Virus record (IMG/VR): IMGVR_UViG_3300045988_084973
DNA from: a virus
Length of the DNA: 41,330 bases
Strand: one strand, 5' to 3'
The translations under genes were made by a program, and so were the position numbers. Position 1 is the first letter of the stretch. Every line of letters starts with the position of its first letter. Positions 1,181 to 28,156 of the stretch are shown here, one piece after another. Under the pieces are notes generated by a model. That model did not search any database. It was not told the origin of the DNA and saw only the letters and a list, made by a program, of their open reading frames with translations.

Positions 1181-3849
1181 CGCATGAAGTAGTGCTGCAG
1201 GGGTACAACGTAAAGCCTGGCTCTCTGCAGCTTGGAACTTTTGACAGCTACGGCATTGAGAAAATCCACGTGACGGCAGATGACAGTTGGGATGGGCTGG
1301 CCATTGTTGTAACTTTTAATCCACCCGAAGGTGACGCGGTAGAAGTGCGCGTGCCTGCAGATGGTACGGTAGATGTACCGCCTGAAGCGACCACTTACGA
1401 AGGCAAGGGCACCATTGTATTTTGCGGTGTTGACAGCGGTGTACAGCGCATTACAAAAACAATGGGCTATGTGGTAATCACTCATGCAAATGTGGGCACT
1501 GACACAGCCTTTACGCCGAGTGAGGATTTGGCCGCGCAGGTATTGAACGCCGCTTTGAGCGCAGAGCGCAGCAGCACAGAAGCAAACACGGCGGCACAGG
1601 GCGCACAGAAGGCAGCAGAAAATGCAGCAAGCGCGGCACAGGCAAGTGCCGAATCCGCTAACAAGGCAGCGGCGGAAGCGGCAGCGGCCAAACCTTACAC
1701 CGAAAGTGCAAAAGCAAGTGCAGAAGCGGCAAGGGATTCGGAAAATCAGGCGCAGCAATCCAGCACGGAAGCAACCGCTGCGAAAAATGCCGCACAAAAT
1801 GCACAGGCTGGTGCAGAAAGCTCCGCATCGGCTGCGGCAAAGTCAGCAAAAGAAGCGGCTGCCAGTGCGGTAAATCTGGACAATGCTGTAAACACGGCAA
1901 CGCAGAAAGCAGCGGCAGCAAGCGCTTCGGCAGCAGCGGCAAAGGCGAGCGAGAATGCAGCAGCCAACAGTGAGGCAGCGGCGAAAACGTATGCCGAGAG
2001 TGCGCGGACGGCCAAAAACAGTGCTGCCGCCAGTGCGGAAACCGCGAACGCGGCGAAAGATTCGGCCAGCGCCAGTGCCAGAGATGCAGCCGCAAGTAAA
2101 ATTGCAGCTGCGGCCAGTGAGAAAAATGCAGCGAACAGCGCCAGCTCTGCGGCGGGCAGCGCCAGCGCCGCCAAAGAAAGCGAAAAGGCGGCCGCCAAGA
2201 GTGCCGAAGAAGCCAAGGCATCTACCCCGGCGTCTACGCTGGACGGCATGTACACGGCCATGCTGGACGGCACCAACACGCAGAAGATCTTTAAACTGTG
2301 GTGGCCGTTTGCCGTAACGCAGAGCGAAAACAAGTACAGCTGCCTGGAACGCTTTGCCGCCATGCTGGACACCGCCTGGGGCGATAAGACCTACACGGTG
2401 CGGAACATCCACGAGAGCGTGAGCGGCGATGCCAGCGGCACCCCGCTGGATGATCTGGCAGACGGCCGCAGCGCTGCGCCCCTGGTGACGGATGCCAGCA
2501 CGGGCGTGGCAGATTGGGCCGAAAACGACCCCATGACCTGGTATGTGCGTGCCAACGCCAAGAGCCTGGCAGACGGCACCATGGAGGTGCTGGCCGTTGA
2601 GACCGAAGCCGCCTTTGATGTGGCCGGCGAGACCGCGCCGGTGTACTGCTTTTCCCCTGCCCTGGCCGTGAAGGAATGGGATGACGGCAGCTACCTTTAC
2701 ACTAGCTGGCACATGCGCGCAGGCGACGGCTATGTGCCGATGGCGGGCGATGTAGCCCCAGACGGCACCCACCGCCTGCTGACCTGGCACCCTGCTTTTT
2801 ACGGCGGTAAAAACAGCGCGGGCGGCATGACAAGCGGCGCTGGCCTGCTGCCCATGTCCTGGACCAGCGCCAACGCGGCGCTACCGCTGGCCCGGAAGCT
2901 GACCGCCTACGATGGGCTGTGGTGCGATTGTGACACCCAGTTTGCCCTGATGGCCTGGCGGCTGCGCCACTGGACGTTAAGCAACAGCGGCCAGCTGGAA
3001 GGATGCACCAACTACAACTACCAGTACACCCTTGCGGCAGCCGAAACCGGCGTGAAGCGTGTGCTGCTGACCAAAGCCCAGGGTACCAACCTGCTGGTGG
3101 GCAGCTGCGTGTGCCTGGGTGAACACGGAAGCAATACGAACAACGACCGAAACCAGGCATACAACCACGATGTGTTCAATGTTGCCAAGATTTTGAGCGT
3201 TGAGACCGTAACCGTGAACGATACCGAGTATGCGGCCGTAAACCTGGACCTGGCAAGCACCATCGACACCACGACCACGATGCTGGTAAGCACCATGCCG
3301 TGGCCGAACGGCACCACCGAAGCACTGCCCGGCCATAGTGACGGCTGCATTGGTAACCTGACCAACGGCAAATACCCGTACCGCATTGCCGGTATGGAAA
3401 TGCAGATCGGCAGCTATTGCGAAGAACTTGACCCGCTGTGGAAGGCCAGCCTGGTGGACGATGACCACTGGCACTATGATGTGTACAGTTGCCGGGACAG
3501 TGAGAAGCTGGCCGGAAGCATCACCGCCAACTACCAGAAGGTGGGTGAATTTGACCTGCCGAACGCGAACAAGTGGAGCTGGAACTTTATCCGCGCATTG
3601 AACAAAATGGCGGCAGAAGCACAAATCCCGACGAAGTTCGGCGGTTCCAGCAGCACCTACGTCAAGGCCGCCTTCCTTTCCCCTGGCGGGGCCGGTGTGT
3701 GTGCGCCCTGGCGCTTCGGCTCCCTCAACGATGGGGGCGCCTGTGGTTTGCCCTGCGCGCATGGTGGCTCTGGCACCGGCACCTCCGGCTGGAACGGCGT
3801 GCCGCGGCTTGCTGGATCGGGCAAAAAGCGGGGTGAATGGCCCGCGTAA
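1177..3849 (+). CDS. Tail fibre protein with a long Ala/Ser/Glu/Asn-rich coiled-coil stalk and a large C-terminal domain
   Basis: 890-aa ORF. About 220 aa of AAxxAxxSA-type low-complexity repeats (about nt 1540..2230). Its position is in the fibre module. Confidence 0.8.
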   Translation: MTHEVVLQGYNVKPGSLQLGTFDSYGIEKIHVTADDSWDGLAIVVTFNPPEGDAVEVRVPADGTVDVPPEATTYEGKGTIVFCGVDSGVQRITKTMGYVVITHANVGTDTAFTPSEDLAAQVLNAALSAERSSTEANTAAQGAQKAAENAASAAQASAESANKAAAEAAAAKPYTESAKASAEAARDSENQAQQSSTEATAAKNAAQNAQAGAESSASAAAKSAKEAAASAVNLDNAVNTATQKAAAASASAAAAKASENAAANSEAAAKTYAESARTAKNSAAASAETANAAKDSASASARDAAASKIAAAASEKNAANSASSAAGSASAAKESEKAAAKSAEEAKASTPASTLDGMYTAMLDGTNTQKIFKLWWPFAVTQSENKYSCLERFAAMLDTAWGDKTYTVRNIHESVSGDASGTPLDDLADGRSAAPLVTDASTGVADWAENDPMTWYVRANAKSLADGTMEVLAVETEAAFDVAGETAPVYCFSPALAVKEWDDGSYLYTSWHMRAGDGYVPMAGDVAPDGTHRLLTWHPAFYGGKNSAGGMTSGAGLLPMSWTSANAALPLARKLTAYDGLWCDCDTQFALMAWRLRHWTLSNSGQLEGCTNYNYQYTLAAAETGVKRVLLTKAQGTNLLVGSCVCLGEHGSNTNNDRNQAYNHDVFNVAKILSVETVTVNDTEYAAVNLDLASTIDTTTTMLVSTMPWPNGTTEALPGHSDGCIGNLTNGKYPYRIAGMEMQIGSYCEELDPLWKASLVDDDHWHYDVYSCRDSEKLAGSITANYQKVGEFDLPNANKWSWNFIRALNKMAAEAQIPTKFGGSSSTYVKAAFLSPGGAGVCAPWRFGSLNDGGACGLPCAHGGSGTGTSGWNGVPRLAGSGKKRGEWPA

Positions 3850-3903
3850 GCAGGGCCAGAGGGGCAGCAGGCCCCTTTTGACGATAAGAGAGGTGAAAGC
3901 AGG

Positions 3904-4254
3904 ATGAAGTACACGGAAACACTGGACCACGCCCCCGCTGCTGTGGAGCTGGAACGGCTGCCTGATGGCACCGCCTGGCTGCGGCTGCACAAGGATGTGG
4001 TGCAGGGAAAGACCGAAGCGCCGGAGGGTGAAGAGGGCGGGCCGTGCTGGACGGCCACCACTGCGGTGGCCCAGCTGGGCACCGACCGCGCGGCCGAAAC
4101 GGTGGAGAGCATCACCGCCAACCTGGACGACTGGTGGACCTATGCCGAAGCATGGGAAGAACAGCCGCCCATGACGCTGAACCAGCGCATGGATGCGGTG
4201 GAAACCGCCCTGGCCGACATTGTGGACATTATGACGGGAGGTGCCGAAGCATGA
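3904..4254 (+). CDS. Small fibre-module protein in the XkdW-like position; paralogue of 757..1074
   Basis: 116-aa ORF with an AGAGGTGAAAGCAGG RBS region and a C-terminal motif shared with 757..1074. Confidence 0.6.
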   Translation: MKYTETLDHAPAAVELERLPDGTAWLRLHKDVVQGKTEAPEGEEGGPCWTATTAVAQLGTDRAAETVESITANLDDWWTYAEAWEEQPPMTLNQRMDAVETALADIVDIMTGGAEA

Positions 4255-4373
4255 GCATTTGGCTGCTTTTGTACCGCATGAAAAAGATCACTGCGGCACA
4301 GATTTGGGAGCGCGTTGACAGCGGCGCAATCAGCGCCGAAGAGGCCGTGAAAATCTGCGGCCCCAGACCGTGA
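4251..4373 (+). CDS. 40-aa XkdX-like small phage protein
   Basis: ATGA overlap with the upstream gene. MSIWLLLYRMKKITAAQIWERVDSGAISAEEAVKICGPRP fits the XkdX-type pattern (..G.IS.EEA..I.G). Confidence 0.6.
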   Translation: MSIWLLLYRMKKITAAQIWERVDSGAISAEEAVKICGPRP

Positions 4374-4499
4374 GCGTAAAGGTCGGCCTGCTGACGCGTG
4401 CGATGCTCGTGCTGTGGGATTATAAAGAGGCCATCCCGGACGCACTGCCCTGCTGAGGGAGTATGAGCGTCTGGTGATGAATAATGATGAGGTGATACC

Positions 4500-5744
4500 T
4501 TGACAGGAATTTTTAAAGGACGATTTCGGGTGCGGTACAACTACGCCCGATTTGGTTACACGCGGGGTGGCGGTAAGACGTGGCACGGCGGCATTGATTT
4601 GGAAGCGCTGGACGATGATACCATTTACATGCCAACCTACAAGGGCAAGAGCATTTCCGGCACGGTGACCCGGGCGCGGATTGTGACCGACAAAAACAAT
4701 GCGACGTGGGAGTGGGGATATTACGTCTGTGTCCAGCTGGACGCAAACCAGACGCCGGATGCCGTCAACTACCTGTATTTCTGCCACTGCGCCAAGCTGT
4801 TGGTCAAGGCTGGGCAGAAAGTCAAAAGCGGCGATGCACTGGCCGTTATGGGCAACACCGGCAATGCCGCGTTGGCAGACCCGCCGTACAAACACTGTCA
4901 CTTCGAGGTGCGTGCCACTGCCACCGGCAAGGGGCTTGACCCGACGGCGTATGCGGGCTGCCCGAATGAAGTGGGAACCTACGGCGACCAGCCTGCGCAG
5001 ACAAGCGGTGAGGAAGTGCTGATTGATGTATCCCACCACCAGGGCGCTATCGACTGGGCGAGTGTTCCCTACCGCGCCATTGTTCGCATCGGGTATCGCG
5101 GTTACGGCAGCGAAAAGCTCATGAAGGATGAGCAGTTCGACGCCAACCTTGCAGGGGCAAAAGCAAGCGGAAAGCTGTTCGGCTTTTACTTCTTCTCGCA
5201 GGCCGTCACGGTGGACGAAGCCCGCGAGGAAGCAGACTTCTGCGCAAGCCTTGCACCGACAGGCTATCCCTTGTTCTTCGACAGCGAATGGGGACACACA
5301 ACCAAGACCGGCGCCCACGATGGCCGCGCAGACAACCTGACGAAAGACCAGCGCACGGCAATCGCAATGGCATTTTGCGAGAAGGCCAAAGCGCACGGAT
5401 TTACGGCAGGCATTTACACATTCACATCGTTTGCAAGCGGGAACATCGACTACGCTTACCTGTGTGAAGATTACATCGGTTGGCTGGCCGATACCCGCAC
5501 AAACTACGACAAAACGCTGCCGCGCTACATCCACCAATACGGGCAGGGCAGCGTCGCAGGCATCACCGGCACGGTCGACCTCAACCATTTTGTTAAGACC
5601 CTGCCTGCAGTGAACAAGCCTGCAAGCAAGCTACAAGTAATTACCATTGGGCCGGTATCGCAGGGAGATGCGGATGCAATCTACTTGCTGTGTAGGGAAC
5701 GCGGCCTGGCGGATGCCGGGCTGTATAAGAGTGAGTGGGCATAA
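4500..5744 (+). CDS. Two-domain endolysin: N-terminal M23 (LytM-type) peptidase plus GH25 muramidase
   Basis: TTG start after GAGGTGA. M23 motifs WHGGID (HxxxD) and HCHFE (HxH). GH25 motif IDVSHHQGAIDW and FFDSEW. Confidence 0.9.
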   Translation: MTGIFKGRFRVRYNYARFGYTRGGGKTWHGGIDLEALDDDTIYMPTYKGKSISGTVTRARIVTDKNNATWEWGYYVCVQLDANQTPDAVNYLYFCHCAKLLVKAGQKVKSGDALAVMGNTGNAALADPPYKHCHFEVRATATGKGLDPTAYAGCPNEVGTYGDQPAQTSGEEVLIDVSHHQGAIDWASVPYRAIVRIGYRGYGSEKLMKDEQFDANLAGAKASGKLFGFYFFSQAVTVDEAREEADFCASLAPTGYPLFFDSEWGHTTKTGAHDGRADNLTKDQRTAIAMAFCEKAKAHGFTAGIYTFTSFASGNIDYAYLCEDYIGWLADTRTNYDKTLPRYIHQYGQGSVAGITGTVDLNHFVKTLPAVNKPASKLQVITIGPVSQGDADAIYLLCRERGLADAGLYKSEWA

Positions 5745-13139: not shown

Positions 13140-13312
13140 TGTAAGGCAACAAACGCAACAAAACACCAAGCCCAGACAGCTATATGCCTGAACTAAATGC
13201 TATTACGTATCTGACAACTACAATATAGCACGTTTTGTAAACATTTGCAACACCTTACACTGCCGCGACAGCAAAAAAAATCCGTCTGCTGTTCGTTAGC
13301 AGACGGATTTTT
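13140..13312 (+). ncRNA. Candidate leader RNA or small RNA of about 170 nt, running from the early promoter to the intrinsic terminator
   Basis: Predicted start just downstream of TATAAT. The 5' TGTAAGG (13140..13146) can pair with CCTTACA (13253..13259) just before the terminator. No credible ORF. Confidence 0.35.
13273..13312. terminator. Intrinsic terminator, bidirectional in form (A-run, 10-bp stem, T-run), inside the early leader
   Basis: AAAAAAAA TCCGTCTGCT gttcgtt AGCAGACGGA TTTTT. Confidence 0.8.
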
Positions 13313-13641
13313 CCCAAAGTTTTTTACCAGAACAAGTTTGCAGCAACGGAACCGCTCAATGTGAGCGGGCAAGTACACGGTCCTTTGTGCAATGCGCATC
13401 CGCTGCTTGCAAAACGAACTTGCAATTCTGTGGACTTGCCGTAACCTTTGGCAGCTTTGGGGCAGCCGTTTAAGCCATAGCGCGTTACGCAATTTCTTTA
13501 GTCTGGAACTGGCATACTCAAAAGTTGGGTCAAGGGACGACCACCTTCCTTTCTGCCTTACTCTGGCAATTCAGATTATAGCATATTGTGTCGCGGCAGT
13601 CAATTTTGTTTACTTCTAATTTTTACTAGGGAGGTGAAAAA

Positions 13642-25700: not shown

Positions 25701-25885
25701 CAAAACAGCAACTAGTTGACGAATACGCCCGAGAACATCTTTGCGCGACATGCGAGTGGAAGAATGGCAATATTTGCACGCTGCCGCGCTGCATGAAAGT
25801 GGAAGAAAGGAGATACAATGACCCGAGAAGAATTCAACCAAAAGAAAACGTGGCTATGGAGATACCAACGCAGCAGGAATCATGA
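25697..25885 (+). CDS. Cys-rich small protein; overlaps the start of the next gene
   Basis: ATGA overlap. CATCEWKNGNICTLPRC. Confidence 0.4.
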   Translation: MTKQQLVDEYAREHLCATCEWKNGNICTLPRCMKVEERRYNDPRRIQPKENVAMEIPTQQES

Positions 25886-26249
25886 ACGGCAGCTGCGCCA
25901 GCAGATACAGAGCGAACGTGAACGAGCAGCAGCGACAACTAAAGCATTATCCCCCGTTGTGGTGTCTGCTGGCGGTAAAAATAAAATCGAGGATGCCGTT
26001 TGCAGAATCATGGAGCGTCAAGAAGCTCTATACAAGCAGATTATTGACACCGAGATGCAAAGGGAAGAAATTGAAACCGTAATAAACTCTGTGCAAGACC
26101 AAATGCAGCGGGACGTTTTGCGGGAGCGGTATATTGTCGGCACACCGTATTGGTGGAAAATTGCGATAAATCTAAATATTTCCGAGCGATGGGCAAAAAA
26201 ATTACACCGCGCTGCAATTGAAAATCTGTGCACTCCAGTTCACTTTTAA
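25818..26249 (+). CDS. Sigma-70 region-4-like late transcription regulator (DUF1492/RinA-ArpU-type position)
   Basis: AAGGAG RBS. ..RDVLRERYIVGTPYWWKIAINLNISERWAKKLHRAAIENL. Last gene before the packaging module. Confidence 0.7.
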   Translation: MTREEFNQKKTWLWRYQRSRNHERQLRQQIQSERERAAATTKALSPVVVSAGGKNKIEDAVCRIMERQEALYKQIIDTEMQREEIETVINSVQDQMQRDVLRERYIVGTPYWWKIAINLNISERWAKKLHRAAIENLCTPVHF

Positions 26250-26379
26250 TCTGTTATTATAGATATGCTGGATGATGTAGGAACGGGACAGCCTACGACA
26301 TTGCTAAAACCTCTTTTCTTTATTGTTTCAATTCTCCTATTCTTATAGCTGGCAGCCCGGAAAGACGGGCATTTTATAT

Positions 26380-26461
26380 GCCGCATAGCCAATCGCAAGA
26401 TAAGGGCGCTACGCTTAGAAGCGACCGCGTAGAAATGGTGTGAGACCTATGTGCGGCTCCA
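26380..26461 (+). ncRNA. tRNA-like element A (82 nt): 7-bp acceptor-type helix, T-loop-like hairpin, encoded TCCA end
   Basis: GCCGCAT pairs with GTGCGGC, followed by T and CCA. GG-TGTGAGA-CC hairpin. The core does not fold as a canonical cloverleaf. Confidence 0.5.
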
Positions 26462-26610
26462 AGGCCATGCAATGGGTCTGTCCTATCCGTAAGGGACGAA
26501 ACTTTTCCCCGCATCTGCTGGCGGGTAAGTTCAGCAGAACCGTGCCGGGTCAAGGCTGGCGCTGCTGGCTTCTGCAACAAGAGTCGTTCCTGAGCGGCGC
26601 TATTTTATAT

Positions 26611-26715
26611 GCTGCATAGCCAGCCGCAAACTTGGCCTGACAAGTCAATACGGCAAGGGCGCTGCGTTCCGCAAGCTACGGCGTGGCAAAGGTGCAAGAC
26701 CTATGTGCAGTACCA
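26611..26715 (+). ncRNA. tRNA-like element B (105 nt), paralogue of element A, with an encoded ACCA end
   Basis: GCTGCAT pairs with GTGCAGT, followed by A and CCA. Blocks shared with A: TTTTATATGCyGCATAGCCA, AAGGGCGCT, AGACCTATGTGC. Confidence 0.5.
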
Positions 26716-26879
26716 GAGGTCGGGTAGCGCCCGAACGATGTGAGCGTGTATGGCATACCTCACCCAGAATAAAAATGCCTGCTGAAAACTATCGGAATGG
26801 ATGGTACGTAACGTCTGTTCGTGAAAGAGACCATGACTCTCAAGTAGACGATAGATAATCTAAGCGGGAAGCCTACCAT

Positions 26880-26955
26880 GCTGGATTAACTCAACTGGTA
26901 GAGTATCTGTTTTGTAATCAGACGGTTCGGGGTTCAAGTCCTCGATTCAGCACCA
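26880..26955 (+). tRNA. tRNA-Thr (anticodon UGU), CCA encoded
   Basis: Manual cloverleaf: GCTGGAT/ATTCAGC acceptor, ACTC/GAGT D stem, loop TTTGTAA, CGGGG-TTCAAGT-CCTCG T arm. 76 nt. Confidence 0.85.
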
Positions 26956-27198
26956 ATGCCGATGATACGGGTAAAGGTAGCAGGGCCGGACGCGGCAATT
27001 GTGTTCCCCGTTAGGCAACCGCCACGAGCCTACTGACAGTGCGTAACATGTGGCGGATTCTGCAATACAGGGTGGCTCTCTGCCGTGGAAGTCGGCCAAC
27101 TTTAGCTGAAACATTGCTATGGATTGCCAAGCCAAACAGGTTCATGCCGATATGCCCCGCTAAAGAAACTTGCAGGGCAGAGCGCATGAGCCTTATAT

Positions 27199-27282
27199 GC
27201 CAACATAGCTTAACTGGTAAAGCCGGGCCTCATGACAGCATAGCTGCGGGTTTAGTTGCGGGTTCAAATCCTGCTGTTGGCG
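27199..27282 (+). ncRNA. tRNA-like element C, or a pseudo-tRNA: canonical acceptor, D and T arms and a CTCATGA segment, but no anticodon stem
   Basis: GCCAACA/TGTTGGC, GCTT-AACTGGTA-AAGC, GCGGG-TTCAAAT-CCTGC. The 34 nt between the D and T arms cannot form a 5-bp stem around CAT. Confidence 0.5.
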
Positions 27283-27681
27283 AAAGCTGGGTCGCTCCCA
27301 CCGGTGAAAGCCCGGCGCAGGCAAAACGCGATAGCTAACCTGAACGCTATAAGCAAAGCGGCAAGCCGATACGGAGCGCGGAGCGATGGCAAGACGCAAC
27401 GGGACTGTGAGAGCCTGAAAACTTTTGCCCGCACAGTGAAGTGCGAAACCAAACTTCAACCGCGAATCGGTGCGCGGGTATAAATGCCGCCGGATGCCGC
27501 AAGCCCGGGCGGGGTACAAATGCAGGGAATCAAAAAGCGCGTGGACAGCAGGCACGTTAAATTCTGACTGTACAAAAGCGTTGCGGATTTGCTCACCGCA
27601 ACGGGTGAGACCGGCACAGCATAAACCGGTAGGGCGGGAACGCGCTTTTCCTCCGGCGCAAAGGGGTTCTGGGGGATATAA

Positions 27682-27709
27682 GCCTACACAAATTGTGTGG
27701 GCTTTTTGT
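27682..27709 (+). terminator. Rho-independent terminator just upstream of terS
   Basis: GCCTACACA aat TGTGTGGGC followed by TTTTT. Confidence 0.75.
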
Positions 27710-27730
27710 GTTGTAAAGCGAGGTGATAAA

Positions 27731-28156
27731 GTGGCATCAAGAAAAAATCCGGGTGGCGCACCACCTAAATACAGAAGCGTAAAGGCAATGCAAGAAAAGA
27801 TCGATGTCTACTTTGAAGCCTGCAAAGGGAAGCCGTTCTTAGACGATAACGGTGAACCGATGCGAAATAAAAACGGCTATATCATCTATGACGATAAAAA
27901 GCCGCCTACTGTGACAGGATTGGCGCTTGCACTTGGATTCACATCAAGGCAAGCGCTTTTGAATTACCAAAACAAACCAGAGTTCGTTGACACGATTACG
28001 CGCGCAAAGACCATTTGTGAACAGTACGCCGAAGAAAGATTGTACGACAAAGACGGCTCCGGCGGCGCACAGTTCAGCTTGCGGGCAAATTTTGGATGGC
28101 AGGATAAGCCAGAACAACAGCAGGATAGCGAGGTGCAAATCATAGATGACTTGTAA
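27731..28156 (+). CDS. terS: Terminase small subunit
   Basis: GAGGTGA RBS then GTG. ..PPTVTGLALALGFTSRQALLNY..ITRAKTICEQYAEERL..GAQFSLRANFGW. Confidence 0.8.
   Translation: MASRKNPGGAPPKYRSVKAMQEKIDVYFEACKGKPFLDDNGEPMRNKNGYIIYDDKKPPTVTGLALALGFTSRQALLNYQNKPEFVDTITRAKTICEQYAEERLYDKDGSGGAQFSLRANFGWQDKPEQQQDSEVQIIDDL

What the first reader, a model, noticed from the sequence alone, without database searches (positions are those of the whole stretch)
26250..27709. 1.45-kb ORF-free, hairpin-dense RNA locus between the late regulator and terS
In a genome where genes otherwise abut or overlap, about 1460 nt carry no credible ORF on either strand. The ORFs in the track here are short, mutually overlapping and Arg/Cys/Gly-rich.

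The tract begins at the stop of the sigma-like late regulator. It ends in a clean intrinsic terminator (27682..27709) about 20 nt before the terS RBS, so it is probably transcribed with the late genes.

It is packed with GC-rich local helices separated by A-rich linkers. Examples are CCGCCAC 27019..27025 with GTGGCGG 27050..27056, GTTGCGG 27580..27586 with CCGCAAC 27596..27602, and ATC-GCAA-GAT (a GNRA-type loop) near 26391..26400. It also embeds one real tRNA and three tRNA-like units.

Established knowledge: the very large 'ornate' bacterial RNAs GOLLD and ROOL are typically found in phages and prophages next to tRNA genes. I cannot tell by eye whether this is one of those classes, a diverged relative, or a new class.
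Basis: partly seen in the sequence, partly recalled or inferred. Interest (0 to 1): 0.85.

Follow-up and report, generated by a model that had tools for sequence, protein, structure and literature searches.

The report
Mosaic tRNA-like RNA island before terS
The 1.46-kb gene-free stretch is not one giant RNA: it is a shuffled string of small RNA genes, made up of one real tRNA, three tRNA look-alikes, the already catalogued D12-methyl RNA and several hairpin modules, that a family of human-gut phages carries just ahead of its DNA-packaging genes.

Summary

The GOLLD/ROOL reading fails: neither Rfam model matches, even at E<=10.

The tract is a promoter-to-terminator noncoding cassette made of independent modules:
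- an extended -10 box (26252-26260);
- two CCA-ended cloverleaf RNAs (26380-26461 and 26611-26715), a family absent from Rfam 15, with compensatory changes in all five helices;
- tRNA-Thr(UGU);
- an 86-nt tRNA-like element with no anticodon loop;
- 'module X' (27284-27431);
- D12-methyl RNA (RF02950, 94 bits);
- an intrinsic terminator.

In about 200 related gut-phage contigs the gap ranges from 409 to 2805 nt, because modules are gained, lost and swapped. The cloverleaf and D12 are almost always kept. Module X nearly always sits directly after some tRNA-shaped element.

Most likely biogenesis (inferred, not shown): one precursor transcript cut by RNase P and RNase Z at the tRNA-shaped elements into small stable RNAs.

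The function of the mimics and of D12 is unknown. The main candidates are a decoy, or a terminator read-through element.

Verdict: a new variant of phage tRNA/small-RNA clusters, of moderate interest.

The parts
25818..26249 (+). Flanking gene: DUF1492 (LtrB-family, sigma-region-4-like) late transcription regulator
   Evidence: It matches Pfam PF07374 at E=1.6e-7. The family's role comes from PMC3753634.
26252..26260 (+). Candidate promoter of the island: extended -10 box TGtTATTAT, 3 nt after the regulator's stop codon
   Evidence: TGNTATWAT occurs 8 times in the window against 1.95 expected; 0 of 100 shuffles reach 8. The box is kept as TGNTATTAT behind both types of upstream regulator gene (alignment). 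A sister lineage (L114) has TTGAAA-16-TGgTATAAT, 11 of 12 consensus positions, at the equivalent place. It is a consensus match only; promoter function is inferred.
26277..26296 (+). Leader hairpin GUAGG...CCUAC
   Evidence: Relatives with the other regulator type have a different sequence of the same shape, CUGUAA...UUACAG.
26355..26379 (+). Hairpin GCCCGGAAAGACGGGC followed by the AUUUUAUAU leader that precedes the first cloverleaf unit
   Evidence: The scan flags it as terminator-like. Its fourth pair flips C-G to G-C in relatives (GCCGGGAAAGACCGGC). The block 26334-26400 is present in about 75 of 79 related loci.
26380..26461 (+). Cloverleaf tRNA-like unit A, ending in U-CCA
   Evidence: Covariance model R1 scores it 88.9 bits, E=2e-27. 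The cloverleaf is supported by covariation. Neither ARAGORN nor Rfam tRNA calls it.
26462..26601 (+). Rare spacer module with hairpins. It ends in a terminator-like hairpin (26583-26598) followed by the AUUUUAUAU leader sequence.
   Evidence: Homologues occur in only about 4-5 of 79 loci. Fold. Terminator-like site.
26611..26715 (+). Cloverleaf tRNA-like unit B, ending in A-CCA, with an expanded 'D' hairpin
   Evidence: R1 scores it 141 bits, E=8e-45. The inner hairpin ACUUG/CAAGU covaries with ACUGG/CCAGU.
26716..26879 (+). Spacer modules. 26716-26763 is common; 26764-26879 is rare.
   Evidence: Coverage is 35 loci for the first part and 5 for the second, out of 79. About 80 nt (26710-26790) is shared with the tRNA island of an unrelated gut phage, MT836871.
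26880..26955 (+). tRNA-Thr (anticodon UGU) with encoded CCA
   Evidence: Called by ARAGORN and by Rfam RF00005 at 61.8 bits.
26956..27062 (+). Module with a large-loop hairpin, 27019-27056 (CCGCCAC...GUGGCGG)
   Evidence: The stem covaries with CCCCGC...GCGGGG around a conserved loop, AGCCUACUNACAGUGCGYAAC. In relatives it sits directly in front of a UUUUAUAU leader and a tRNA or tRNA-like element.
27063..27197 (+). Rare spacer modules and the leader of the next tRNA-like element
   Evidence: Coverage is 1-9 of 79 loci. The fold z-score is -2.4.
27198..27283 (+). 86-nt tRNA-like element. It has a canonical acceptor stem, D arm and T arm. The anticodon arm is replaced by a 29-nt irregular hairpin. 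It has no encoded CCA.
   Evidence: Rfam tRNA scores it 45.3 bits, with a 29-nt insert in place of the 17-nt anticodon arm. ARAGORN forces a reading as 'His(atg)'. Relatives carry tetraloop, 58-nt arm-less or D-arm-less versions at the same position.
27284..27431 (+). Module X: a conserved multi-hairpin RNA that starts right after the discriminator base of the preceding tRNA-shaped element
   Evidence: It is present in 50-70 of 79 loci. Helix GGCAAGA/CUUUUGCC covaries with GGCAGAC/GUCUGCC and GGCAGGU/AUCUGCC, and CCGG/CCGG covaries with CAGG/CCUG. In 58 of 71 loci it begins 16-19 nt after a GGTTCRANTCC box.
27432..27578 (+). Variable hairpin modules between module X and D12
   Evidence: At least five alternative sequences occupy this position in relatives. 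Coverage is 13-27 of 79 loci.
27579..27642 (+). D12-methyl RNA (Rfam RF02950)
   Evidence: It scores 94.4 bits against a gathering score of 57, over the full model. Stem 2 covaries: ACCGG/CCGGU, GUCGG/CCGAC, GUCUG/CAGAC and CCCGG/CCGGG. Stem 1 covaries: GUUGCGG/CCGCAAC, GUUGCAAAG/CUUUGCAAC and UGCAGA/UCUGCA.
27643..27716 (+). Near-invariant spacer, then an intrinsic terminator (stem 27680-27704, then a U-run)
   Evidence: Terminator site. The block is nearly invariant in 60 of 61 unique relatives. The terminator stem covaries with AAGCUCAUGC/GCAUGGGCUU in lineages where a ParB-like methyltransferase gene follows. The fold z-score is -3.4.
27731..28156 (+). Flanking gene: terS (small terminase), with RBS GAGGTG at 27720-27725
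   Evidence: It matches Pfam PF16677 GP3_package at E=1e-20.

Best explanation
The tract is an accessory noncoding cassette, a 'noncoding moron', bounded by a promoter and a terminator.

**Transcription.** It is read in the same direction as the packaging genes. The likely start is the extended -10 box at 26252-26260, just after the late-regulator gene. The end is the intrinsic terminator at 27680-27704.

**Content.** The transcript is a polycistronic precursor of small RNAs. tRNA-shaped elements act as punctuation: two CCA-ended cloverleaf mimics, tRNA-Thr, and one tRNA-like element without an anticodon loop.

**Processing (inferred).** Host RNase P would cut at the 5' side of each such element, where the conserved leader ...AUAU|G gives U at -1 and A at -4. 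RNase Z or 3' trimming would cut at their 3' sides. This would release the mimics, the tRNA, the module X RNA, whose 5' end would be made by the cut behind the preceding tRNA-like element, and a 3'-terminal D12-methyl RNA stabilised by the terminator hairpin.

**Evolution.** Recombination between the repeated leaders and tRNA-like sequences shuffles, duplicates and deletes modules. That explains the mosaic seen in relatives.

**Function.** tRNA-Thr supplements decoding. For the anticodon-less, CCA-ended mimics, my best guess, held with low confidence, is that they are decoys or sponges for host factors that recognise the acceptor/elbow part of tRNA, such as tRNA-targeting defence nucleases or modifying enzymes. 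D12 may be a stable small RNA, or a cis element that governs passage into the genes downstream.

**Shown here:** the identity, boundaries, conservation, covariation and modularity of the parts.
**Inferred:** the promoter, the processing steps and the function.
For: **No coding potential.**
- There is no credible ORF and no Pfam hit.
- Independent gene calls are empty in the same gap.
- Indels of 1 and 2 nt occur inside conserved modules.

**One strand.** All RNA elements lie on the + strand.

**The cloverleaf is a real structure.**
- 98.8% of alignment cells form standard pairs, against 28-53% when partners are slid.
- 7 to 9 pairs show changes on both sides, spread over all five helices. A divergent lineage with acceptor ACCGUAU/AUACGG is included.

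**Modularity.**
- Gap length is 409-2805 nt among 38 relatives with the same regulator.
- Per-module coverage ranges from 1 to 75 of 79 loci.
- Breakpoints fall at unit ends and at CCA.
- Truncated or fused units occur in the minimal arrays.

**Punctuation.**
- Module X follows a canonical T-loop box by 16-19 nt in 58 of 71 loci, yet ARAGORN calls a tRNA in only 13 of 71.
- The preceding element can be a true tRNA-Thr, a 58-nt anticodon-arm-less form, a tetraloop form, a D-arm-less form or a cloverleaf unit.
- What is kept is the part RNase P and RNase Z read: acceptor stem plus elbow. That they read these parts is established knowledge, not a result here.

**Cassette boundaries.**
- The extended -10 motif is enriched in this phage, 8 copies against 1.95 expected. 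It is conserved at the 5' edge.
- In the L114 lineage the same island sits between terL and portal. There it starts with an 11-of-12 consensus promoter and ends at a 16-bp terminator.

**Linkage of cloverleaf and D12.**
- The cloverleaf is found in 73 of 80 terS-anchored loci and 35 of 40 loci with other contexts. It is always upstream of D12 on the same strand.
- D12 lies 452-1075 nt downstream of unit cores in further contigs.
Against: - No transcript data were available. The promoter, the processing sites and RNA stability are all inferred.
- A good terminator lies 26 nt before terS. If the late promoter is the 5' box, late transcription must read through that terminator, and no antiterminator was identified.
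- Phages with minimal arrays lack an intact cloverleaf (L026, L049, L060). A few lack D12 (L033/L034). So no single module is essential.
- Single-sequence folding energies are not exceptional.
- Most of module X and D12 is invariant, so covariation power there is small: 3 to 5 pairs.
- Nothing found here bears on the decoy function.
Confidence: 0.6

Rival explanations
1. Long structured 5' leader of the late operon, with D12-methyl as a cis regulator. The Ltr-dependent late promoter would be the 5' box. The whole tract would then be the untranslated leader of the terS-terL-portal mRNA. D12, sitting just before the terminator, would act like the phage HK022 put RNA, or like a riboswitch, to decide whether RNA polymerase passes the terminator into terS or into inserted accessory genes. 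The tRNA-like cargo would be incidental.
For: - Ltr regulators act on a single late promoter placed just after their own gene (PMC3753634). The only promoter-like box lies 3 nt after the DUF1492 stop codon.
- There is no room for a promoter between the terminator and terS, only 26 nt.
- D12, the spacer and the terminator form by far the most conserved block: 60 of 61 unique sequences. They survive in the minimal arrays.
- Whatever follows D12 is the next expressed gene. Cases seen: terS, a D12-class methyltransferase, a ParB-like methyltransferase, terL directly, a 49-aa zinc-ribbon ORF, and a 48-aa hydrophobic ORF inserted in its tail.
- D12 has two hairpins plus highly conserved unpaired G-rich stretches, as put RNAs and aptamers do.
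Against: - In the L114 lineage the island lies between terL and portal and has its own consensus promoter. D12 therefore does not mark the start of the late operon.
- L191 and L114 have D12 with no terminator after it.
- L033 and L034 lack D12 yet keep the array and terS.
- No alternative antiterminator pairing was found. A candidate outer helix was not conserved.
- Rfam files D12-methyl as an sRNA gene.
Confidence: 0.2
2. A decaying tRNA gene array. The tRNA-like elements would be pseudogenes of once-functional phage tRNAs, and the rest recombination debris carried passively in a permissive intergenic spot.
For: - The content is highly variable, with truncated and fused units.
- Many elements have lost the anticodon arm.
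- Phages with arrays of only about 410 nt exist.
- Relatives hold functional tRNAs (Thr, Trp, Gly, Met) at the same places.
Against: - Compensatory changes maintain all five cloverleaf helices across lineages with different packaging genes.
- The loops (AAGC.AC, and the GNRA-like GCAAG/GUGAG) and the NCCA tail are conserved.
- The cloverleaf is kept in 108 of 120 loci examined.
- The anticodon-less elements keep intact acceptor, D and T arms and still score 40-45 bits on the tRNA model. Random decay would not spare exactly those parts.
Confidence: 0.1
3. One large 'ornate' structured RNA of the GOLLD/ROOL kind, or a new class of that size, folding as a single unit.
For: It lies in a phage, next to tRNAs. 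It is about 1.4 kb long, without ORFs and with many helices.
Against: - There is no GOLLD or ROOL hit at E<=10.
- Near-identical phages lack most of the interior.
- All supported helices are local.
- Internal tRNAs and CCA ends imply cleavage into pieces.
Confidence: 0.03
4. The conserved 3' block (27574-27716) works at the DNA level, as the terminase recognition (pac/cos) site or as the late promoter/operator, rather than as RNA.
For: It is nearly invariant, shows little covariation in the 27643-27679 spacer, and lies immediately upstream of terS. A TATAAG box at 27677-27682 could place a transcription start inside the terminator stem.
Against: - D12 stems 1 and 2 and the terminator stem all show compensatory changes, as expected for RNA.
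- The TATAAG box is disrupted (AATCAAG) in L050 and L063 and in the ParB-methyltransferase lineages.
- Contig ends do not pile up at this site.
- The block also occurs in front of methyltransferase genes, away from terS.
Confidence: 0.07

Closest known systems
D12-methyl RNA motif (Rfam RF02950; Weinberg et al. 2017, PMC5737381)
   Same: Window 27579-27642 is a full-length member, scoring 94.4 bits against a gathering score of 57. In relatives a D12-class adenine methyltransferase gene (PF02086) follows it.
   Different: Here it is followed by terS, not by a methyltransferase. Across about 200 contigs it is the 3' end of a tRNA/tRNA-like island, and the gene after it varies. The methyltransferase link therefore looks like insertion at a hot spot. 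Its function is unknown.
Phage tRNA gene clusters that also encode small stable non-tRNA RNAs, such as the phage T4 tRNA region with RNA species 1 and 2 (rnaC, rnaD). This comparison is recalled from memory and was not checked here.
   Same: Both are polycistronic clusters on one strand that mix tRNAs with other small structured RNAs. Processing at tRNA boundaries is expected in both.
   Different: Here most tRNA-shaped elements cannot decode. The cluster is a hypervariable mosaic in temperate gut phages. It ends in D12-methyl. No sequence relationship to the T4 RNAs was tested.
Irregular tRNAs, allo-tRNAs with 8/4 acceptor/T-stem geometry, and polycistrons of irregular tRNAs (Mukai et al. 2017, PMC5389517)
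   Same: The cloverleaf units have an 8-bp acceptor stem and a 4-bp T-like stem, 12 bp in all, plus an NCCA tail. They occur in polycistrons with other odd tRNAs in Clostridia-type phages.
   Different: The units have a 10-11-nt loop where the 7-nt anticodon loop should be. They have a 5-nt GNRA-like loop instead of the T-loop, no long variable arm, and a replaceable 'D' hairpin. They are not detected by ARAGORN or by the Rfam tRNA model.
GOLLD and ROOL large ornate RNAs
   Same: The setting is a phage or prophage, next to tRNAs, in a long ORF-free stretch.
   Different: Neither covariance model matches. The tract is modular rather than a single fold.
tRNA-like processing signals that recruit RNase P or RNase Z to define the ends of neighbouring RNAs, such as MALAT1/mascRNA and gammaherpesvirus tRNA-miRNA units (established knowledge)
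   Same: Any tRNA-shaped element, decodable or not, sits directly in front of module X.
   Different: Those examples are eukaryotic or from eukaryotic viruses. Cleavage was not tested here.
Phage 'morons': promoter-to-terminator accessory cassettes inserted among late genes (established concept)
   Same: The island has a promoter-like box at its 5' end and an intrinsic terminator at its 3' end. Its position varies between lineages (Ltr-terS, or terL-portal). It is dispensable.
   Different: The cargo is RNA rather than a protein gene.
Phage HK022 put antiterminator RNA (established knowledge)
   Same: D12 is about 64 nt with two hairpins. It is positioned in cis ahead of a terminator that separates a promoter from a long phage operon.
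   Different: No sequence or model similarity was shown. Antitermination was not tested. D12 also occurs without a terminator.

Membership tests
GOLLD (Rfam) / ROOL (Rfam) | Match to the family covariance model, which scores sequence and multi-domain structure together | tested here: not met
   A cmscan of 26150-27800 with permissive filters at E<=10 lists no GOLLD or ROOL hit. The gathering-threshold scan of the whole window lists none either.
GOLLD (Rfam) / ROOL (Rfam) | A single large RNA (roughly 500-800 nt) conserved as one unit | tested here: not met
   Close relatives keep only subsets of the tract. The gap ranges from 409 to 2805 nt.
D12-methyl RNA (RF02950) | Score at or above the curated gathering score over the full model | tested here: met
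   27579-27642 (+) scores 94.4 bits against 57, over model positions 1-64 of 64. All 18 related loci tested score 84-95 bits.
D12-methyl RNA (RF02950) | Two hairpins supported by covariation | tested here: met
   Stem 2 has four alternative pair sets. Stem 1 has three.
D12-methyl RNA (RF02950) | Association with D12-class N6-adenine DNA methyltransferase genes | tested here: inconclusive
   The window itself has none, since terS follows. The gene is present after the terminator in relatives such as L007 and L012 (PF02086). Other lineages have ParB-like methyltransferase, terL, a zinc-ribbon ORF or portal instead.
tRNA (RF00005), for 26880-26955 | Cloverleaf with a 7-nt anticodon loop, a T-loop, and a model score above the gathering score | tested here: met
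   It scores 61.8 bits against 29. ARAGORN calls tRNA-Thr(tgt). CCA is encoded.
tRNA (RF00005), for 27198-27283 | Functional anticodon stem-loop | tested here: not met
   It scores 45.3 bits, but 29 nt replace the 17-nt anticodon arm. Homologues carry a tetraloop or no arm at all. It is tRNA-like, not a decoding tRNA.
tRNA (RF00005), for cloverleaf units A and B | Detection by tRNA models; canonical D-loop and T-loop; anticodon loop | tested here: not met
   There is no RF00005 hit at E<=10 and no ARAGORN call. The T-like loop is 5 nt and the 'anticodon' loop is 10-11 nt.
allo-tRNA, 8/4 type (PMC5389517) | An 8-bp acceptor stem plus a 4-bp T stem | tested here: met
   Alignment columns 10-17 pair with 103-110 (8 pairs), and columns 89-92 pair with 98-101 (4 pairs). 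These helices are 98-100% paired.
allo-tRNA, 8/4 type (PMC5389517) | Anticodon loop with a usable anticodon, a long variable arm, and a canonical T-loop | tested here: not met
   None of the three features is present in 40 unique sequences.
RNase P / RNase Z substrate (punctuation model) | Cleavage at the 5' end of the acceptor stem and after the discriminator base | not testable with these tools
   Only the recognition features are visible: the acceptor stem, the elbow in the tRNA-like elements, U at -1 and A at -4 in the leader, and NCCA.
put-type processive antiterminator RNA | Cis-acting suppression of downstream terminators | not testable with these tools
   Only the arrangement is seen: D12, then a 37-nt spacer, then the terminator and the next gene.

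The most novel reading that the evidence does not exclude
The cloverleaf, module X and D12 together form a dedicated, horizontally mobile noncoding system of gut Clostridia phages. CCA-ended tRNA mimics without an anticodon would act as decoys for host tRNA-targeting immunity or for tRNA-binding enzymes. D12-methyl would be a cis-acting read-through element or ribo-regulator that couples expression of the island to the packaging genes and to inserted accessory genes such as methyltransferases. If so, this would be a new RNA-only counter-defence and regulatory module.
Probability: 0.15. Interest if true: 0.8.

Novelty: new variant of a known kind. Interest (0 to 1): 0.5.

Why it matters
The work gives D12-methyl, an orphan Rfam motif of unknown function, a concrete genomic role. 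It is the conserved 3' element of a mobile tRNA/tRNA-like RNA island at the head of the packaging genes. It is not simply an element that accompanies methyltransferase genes.

It also defines two conserved RNAs that Rfam 15 lacks: a CCA-ended cloverleaf mimic and module X. Both occur in hundreds of human-gut phage contigs.

The phages keep the acceptor/elbow half of tRNAs while discarding the anticodon. The cloverleaf is almost always paired with D12. Together these facts give testable hypotheses about RNase P/Z punctuation in phage transcripts, about tRNA mimicry against host tRNA-directed defences, and about control of late transcription.

It is also a caution for genome scans: a long ORF-free, helix-rich tract next to tRNAs need not be a giant RNA.

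Tried and rejected
- **GOLLD, ROOL or any other Rfam family for the interior.** Only weak chance-level hits appeared: Plastid-ycf2, a group II intron fragment and twister-sister, all far below their gathering scores.
- **Hidden protein genes.** Rejected on three grounds: no Pfam hits for the six longest ORFs, no independent gene calls, and 1- and 2-nt indels inside conserved modules.
- **Host identification.** A scan of 185,579 species genomes with a D12 pattern gave one chance hit inside a cyanobacterial coding region. The closest cultured-phage terL proteins are only 45-48% identical (Blautia and Clostridium perfringens phages). The host remains unknown.
- **Literature on D12-methyl.** The term is absent from the searchable full texts, and the supplements of PMC5737381 and PMC10690425 are not held. 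I therefore cannot exclude that the cloverleaf or module X is among the 8,495 unnamed candidate RNAs of PMC10690425.
- **Single-sequence thermodynamics as evidence of structure.** It does not discriminate the tract from its flanks.
- **Outer helix AAAAGCG/CGCUUUU enclosing D12.** The 5' partner is not conserved.
- **Kissing loops in D12** (UUGCU with AGCAA). There is one supporting double change, in L080, and several exceptions. The evidence is too weak to claim.
- **A late promoter with -10 box TATAAG inside the terminator region.** The box is broken in several relatives.
- **GCAAC as an enriched protein-binding motif.** It is not enriched.
- **A sigma-70 two-hexamer promoter inside the tract.** None is found on the + strand.


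Full report
**Setting.** The window is a complete, circularly permuted genome of about 41 kb from a temperate siphophage.
- Its genes include an integrase, ERF recombinase, SSB, DnaB helicase, RusA, a GH25/M23 endolysin, an SPP1-type portal and terS/terL.
- The finding lies between a DUF1492 protein (25818-26249) and terS (GTG 27731; PF16677).
- DUF1492 is the LtrB family of late-operon activators, which act on a promoter placed just after their own gene (PMC3753634).
- The nearest cultured phages infect Blautia and Clostridium perfringens, with terL only 45-48% identical. All related contigs come from human-gut metagenomes. The host was not identified.

**Check of the observation.**
- The tract holds only short, mutually overlapping ORFs without family matches. 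Three independent assemblies have no gene call in the same 1481-nt gap.
- ARAGORN and Rfam find tRNA-Thr(UGU) at 26880-26955 and an aberrant 86-nt tRNA-like element at 27198-27283.
- Two further repeated units carry the leader AUUUUAUAU, an acceptor-like stem and an NCCA tail.
- The terminator is an 11-bp stem at 27680-27704 followed by a T-run.
- One qualification applies. The tract folds more stably than its flanks (p=1e-5), but not more than its base composition predicts (z -0.34 vs -0.17, p=0.2).

**What Rfam recognises.**
- Besides the two tRNA-model hits, 27579-27642 is a full-length D12-methyl RNA: RF02950, 94.4 bits against a gathering score of 57.
- GOLLD and ROOL do not match even at E<=10 with permissive filters. 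Neither does any other family.
It also shows that one piece of the tract is already catalogued, with unknown function.

**Comparative anatomy.**
- Eighty viral contigs encode a terS at least 89% identical. Against the window, the gap is a mosaic.
- Among 38 loci with the same regulator, its length runs from 409 to 2805 nt. The longest gaps include an inserted D12-class methyltransferase gene after the terminator.
- Four blocks are nearly universal: the 5' block 26334-26400, the cloverleaf unit, module X (27284-27431), and the D12-plus-terminator block (27574-27712).
- Three stretches are rare: 26467-26601, 26764-26930 (which includes tRNA-Thr) and 27063-27134.
- Relatives hold other tRNAs at equivalent places: Trp, Gly, Thr(CGU) and Met.
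- Minimal arrays keep only the leader, a truncated unit and D12 with its terminator. Other loci show units fused to module X through a short stretch of similarity.
- This is the pattern of an array remodelled by recombination between repeated elements. It is not the pattern of one large folded RNA.

**The cloverleaf units.**
- Forty unique sequences align to a cloverleaf:
  - an 8-bp acceptor stem;
  - a two-pair stem closing a replaceable hairpin, which comes in four alternative versions, each internally compensated;
  - a 7-bp stem with a 10-11-nt loop, in which AAGC.AC is conserved;
  - a 4-bp stem with a GNRA-like 5-nt loop (GCAAG or GUGAG);
  - an N-CCA tail.
- For this structure 98.8% of cells form standard pairs, against 28-53% when partners are slid, and seven pairs change on both sides.
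- A covariance model built from the alignment finds exactly two copies in the window, at 26371-26465 and 26602-26719. It finds at least one copy in 73 of 80 loci, always on the + strand upstream of terS.
- In lineages with different packaging genes the acceptor becomes ACCGUAU/AUACGG and the T-like stem becomes UGGU/GCCA. With these included, nine pairs across all five helices show double changes.
- The 8/4 geometry recalls allo-tRNAs (PMC5389517). However, there is no anticodon loop, no T-loop and no variable arm, and tRNA finders do not see the units.

**tRNA-shaped punctuation.**
- Module X begins immediately after the 3' end of some tRNA-shaped element. A GGTTCRANTCC box lies 16-19 nt upstream of it in 58 of 71 loci, yet ARAGORN calls a tRNA in only 13 of 71.
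- That element may be a real tRNA-Thr, the 86-nt form, a 58-nt form lacking the anticodon arm, a tetraloop form, a D-arm-less form or a cloverleaf unit.
- The parts kept are the acceptor stem and the D/T elbow. These are what RNase P and RNase Z recognise, according to established knowledge. The leader gives U at -1 and A at -4.
- Each tRNA-shaped element is also preceded by a GC-rich hairpin whose stem covaries (CCGCCAC/GUGGCGG with CCCCGC/GCGGGG).
- Module X itself has a covarying helix: GGCAAGA/CUUUUGCC, GGCAGAC/GUCUGCC and GGCAGGU/AUCUGCC.

**D12-methyl in context.**
- D12, a 37-nt spacer and the terminator are nearly invariant in 60 of 61 unique relatives.
- Stem 2 has four compensated versions and stem 1 has three.
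- Among 119 further contigs found with a D12 pattern, 73 have D12, then the terminator, then terS or the D12-class methyltransferase. Another 40 have other contexts and 6 are too short to tell:
  - a covarying terminator followed by a ParB-like methyltransferase gene (28 contigs);
  - a gene for an unknown protein (2 contigs);
  - terL directly, with no terminator (L191);
  - in eight contigs, a 49-aa zinc-ribbon ORF, a terminator and then portal.
- In that last lineage (L114) the whole island lies between terL and portal. It starts with a promoter matching 11 of 12 consensus positions with an extended -10 box, followed by tRNA-Met, a cloverleaf unit and tRNA-Thr.
- The cloverleaf accompanies D12 in 35 of these 40 contigs. 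D12 lies 452-1075 nt downstream of the unit in additional contigs.
- The island is thus a mobile cassette, and D12 is its 3' terminal element. The methyltransferase that gave the motif its name is one of several genes inserted behind it.

**Boundaries of the cassette in the window.**
- An extended -10 box, TGtTATTAT, sits at 26252-26260, 3 nt after the regulator's stop codon.
- The motif TGNTATWAT occurs eight times in this genome against 1.95 expected; no shuffle of 100 reaches eight.
- The box is kept behind both kinds of upstream regulator gene, while the sequence upstream of it differs with the regulator.
- The two-hexamer scan finds no + strand promoter inside the tract.
- I therefore read the tract as one transcription unit running from about 26265 to the terminator.
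- It remains open whether this is also the Ltr-dependent late promoter, which would make the terminator an attenuator that late transcription must pass.

**Mechanism and rivals.**
- The best-supported account is a polycistronic small-RNA precursor, punctuated by tRNA-shaped elements and processed by host tRNA-maturation enzymes. Confidence is about 0.6 for identity and biogenesis. The function of the mimics is a low-confidence guess: decoys for tRNA-directed host factors.
- Rivals and their confidence:
  - a regulatory leader with D12 as a read-through element: 0.2;
  - a decaying tRNA array: 0.1;
  - a DNA-level role for the conserved 3' block: 0.07;
  - a single ornate RNA: 0.03.
- No transcript data were available, so processing, stability and promoter use are all inferred.

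**Novelty and score.**
- Phage tRNA clusters, tRNA-like RNAs and D12-methyl are all known.
- New here are the cloverleaf family and module X, which Rfam 15 lacks, although they may be among the unnamed candidates of PMC10690425. Also new are their tight linkage with D12, the rule that any tRNA-shaped element can precede module X, and the cassette architecture.
- This is a new variant of a known kind, of moderate interest (0.5).

Noticed in passing
window 13276-13490 (-): A full-length FuFi-1 RNA (Rfam RF02986, 118 bits against a gathering score of 59.6) lies in the lysogeny/early region. An extended -10 box, TGCTATAAT, sits at 13583-13575 on the same strand, about 85 nt upstream.
   Followed up: no
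L007 3102-3986 and L012 2718-3986: The D12-class methyltransferase genes inserted between the terminator and terS carry in-frame 9-nt tandem repeats (SLQ/RLQ). The copy number differs, giving proteins of 294 and 422 aa. This may be length or phase variation.
   Followed up: partly
L018 3745-3900: An insertion of about 150 nt inside the 3' tail of D12 is flanked by a duplicated TAGGGCGGG. It encodes a 48-aa hydrophobic peptide, MGNLGVSMLVLCVIVAYLLKMPFWWAVLLLCCGFLDDNIIFAFANKKK.
   Followed up: no
window 26290, 26870, 27027, 27681 (+); also 25621 (+): The heptamer AGCCTAC occurs four times on the + strand of the tract, against roughly 0.1 expected. The four copies are in the leader hairpin 3' arm, 3 nt before tRNA-Thr, in the loop of the 27019-27056 hairpin, and in the terminator 5' arm. 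This is unexplained.
   Followed up: partly
L208 (MT836871.1) 3500-4760: An unrelated human-gut phage has an ORF-free tRNA island directly upstream of a GP3_package terS. The island holds tRNA-Gln, a 93-nt 'Thr(cgt)' and tRNA-Trp. It shares an 80-nt module with window 26710-26790 but has no D12.
   Followed up: partly
window 26251-26262 and 26337-26348: A direct repeat, CTGTTATTATAG and CTATTCTTATAG, occurs 86 nt apart at the 5' end of the tract. The first copy overlaps the extended -10 box. These are candidate regulator or promoter boxes.
   Followed up: no
L114 2786-2935: In the lineage where the island lies between terL and portal, D12 is followed directly by a 49-aa CxxC...CxxC zinc-ribbon ORF and a strong 16-bp terminator.
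   Followed up: no
L003 3487-3544 and many other loci: 58-nt tRNA-like elements lack the whole anticodon arm. They still score 40-45 bits over the full Rfam tRNA model. They are the commonest element in front of module X.
   Followed up: partly
window 26673-26682 vs 27596-27604 vs 27395-27403: The cloverleaf's large loop (AAGCUACGG in the window, AAGCAACGG in relatives) and module X (CGCAACGGG) resemble the 3' strand of D12 stem 1 (CCGCAACGG). In principle they could compete for the CGUUGC strand. GCAAC is not enriched overall.
   Followed up: partly
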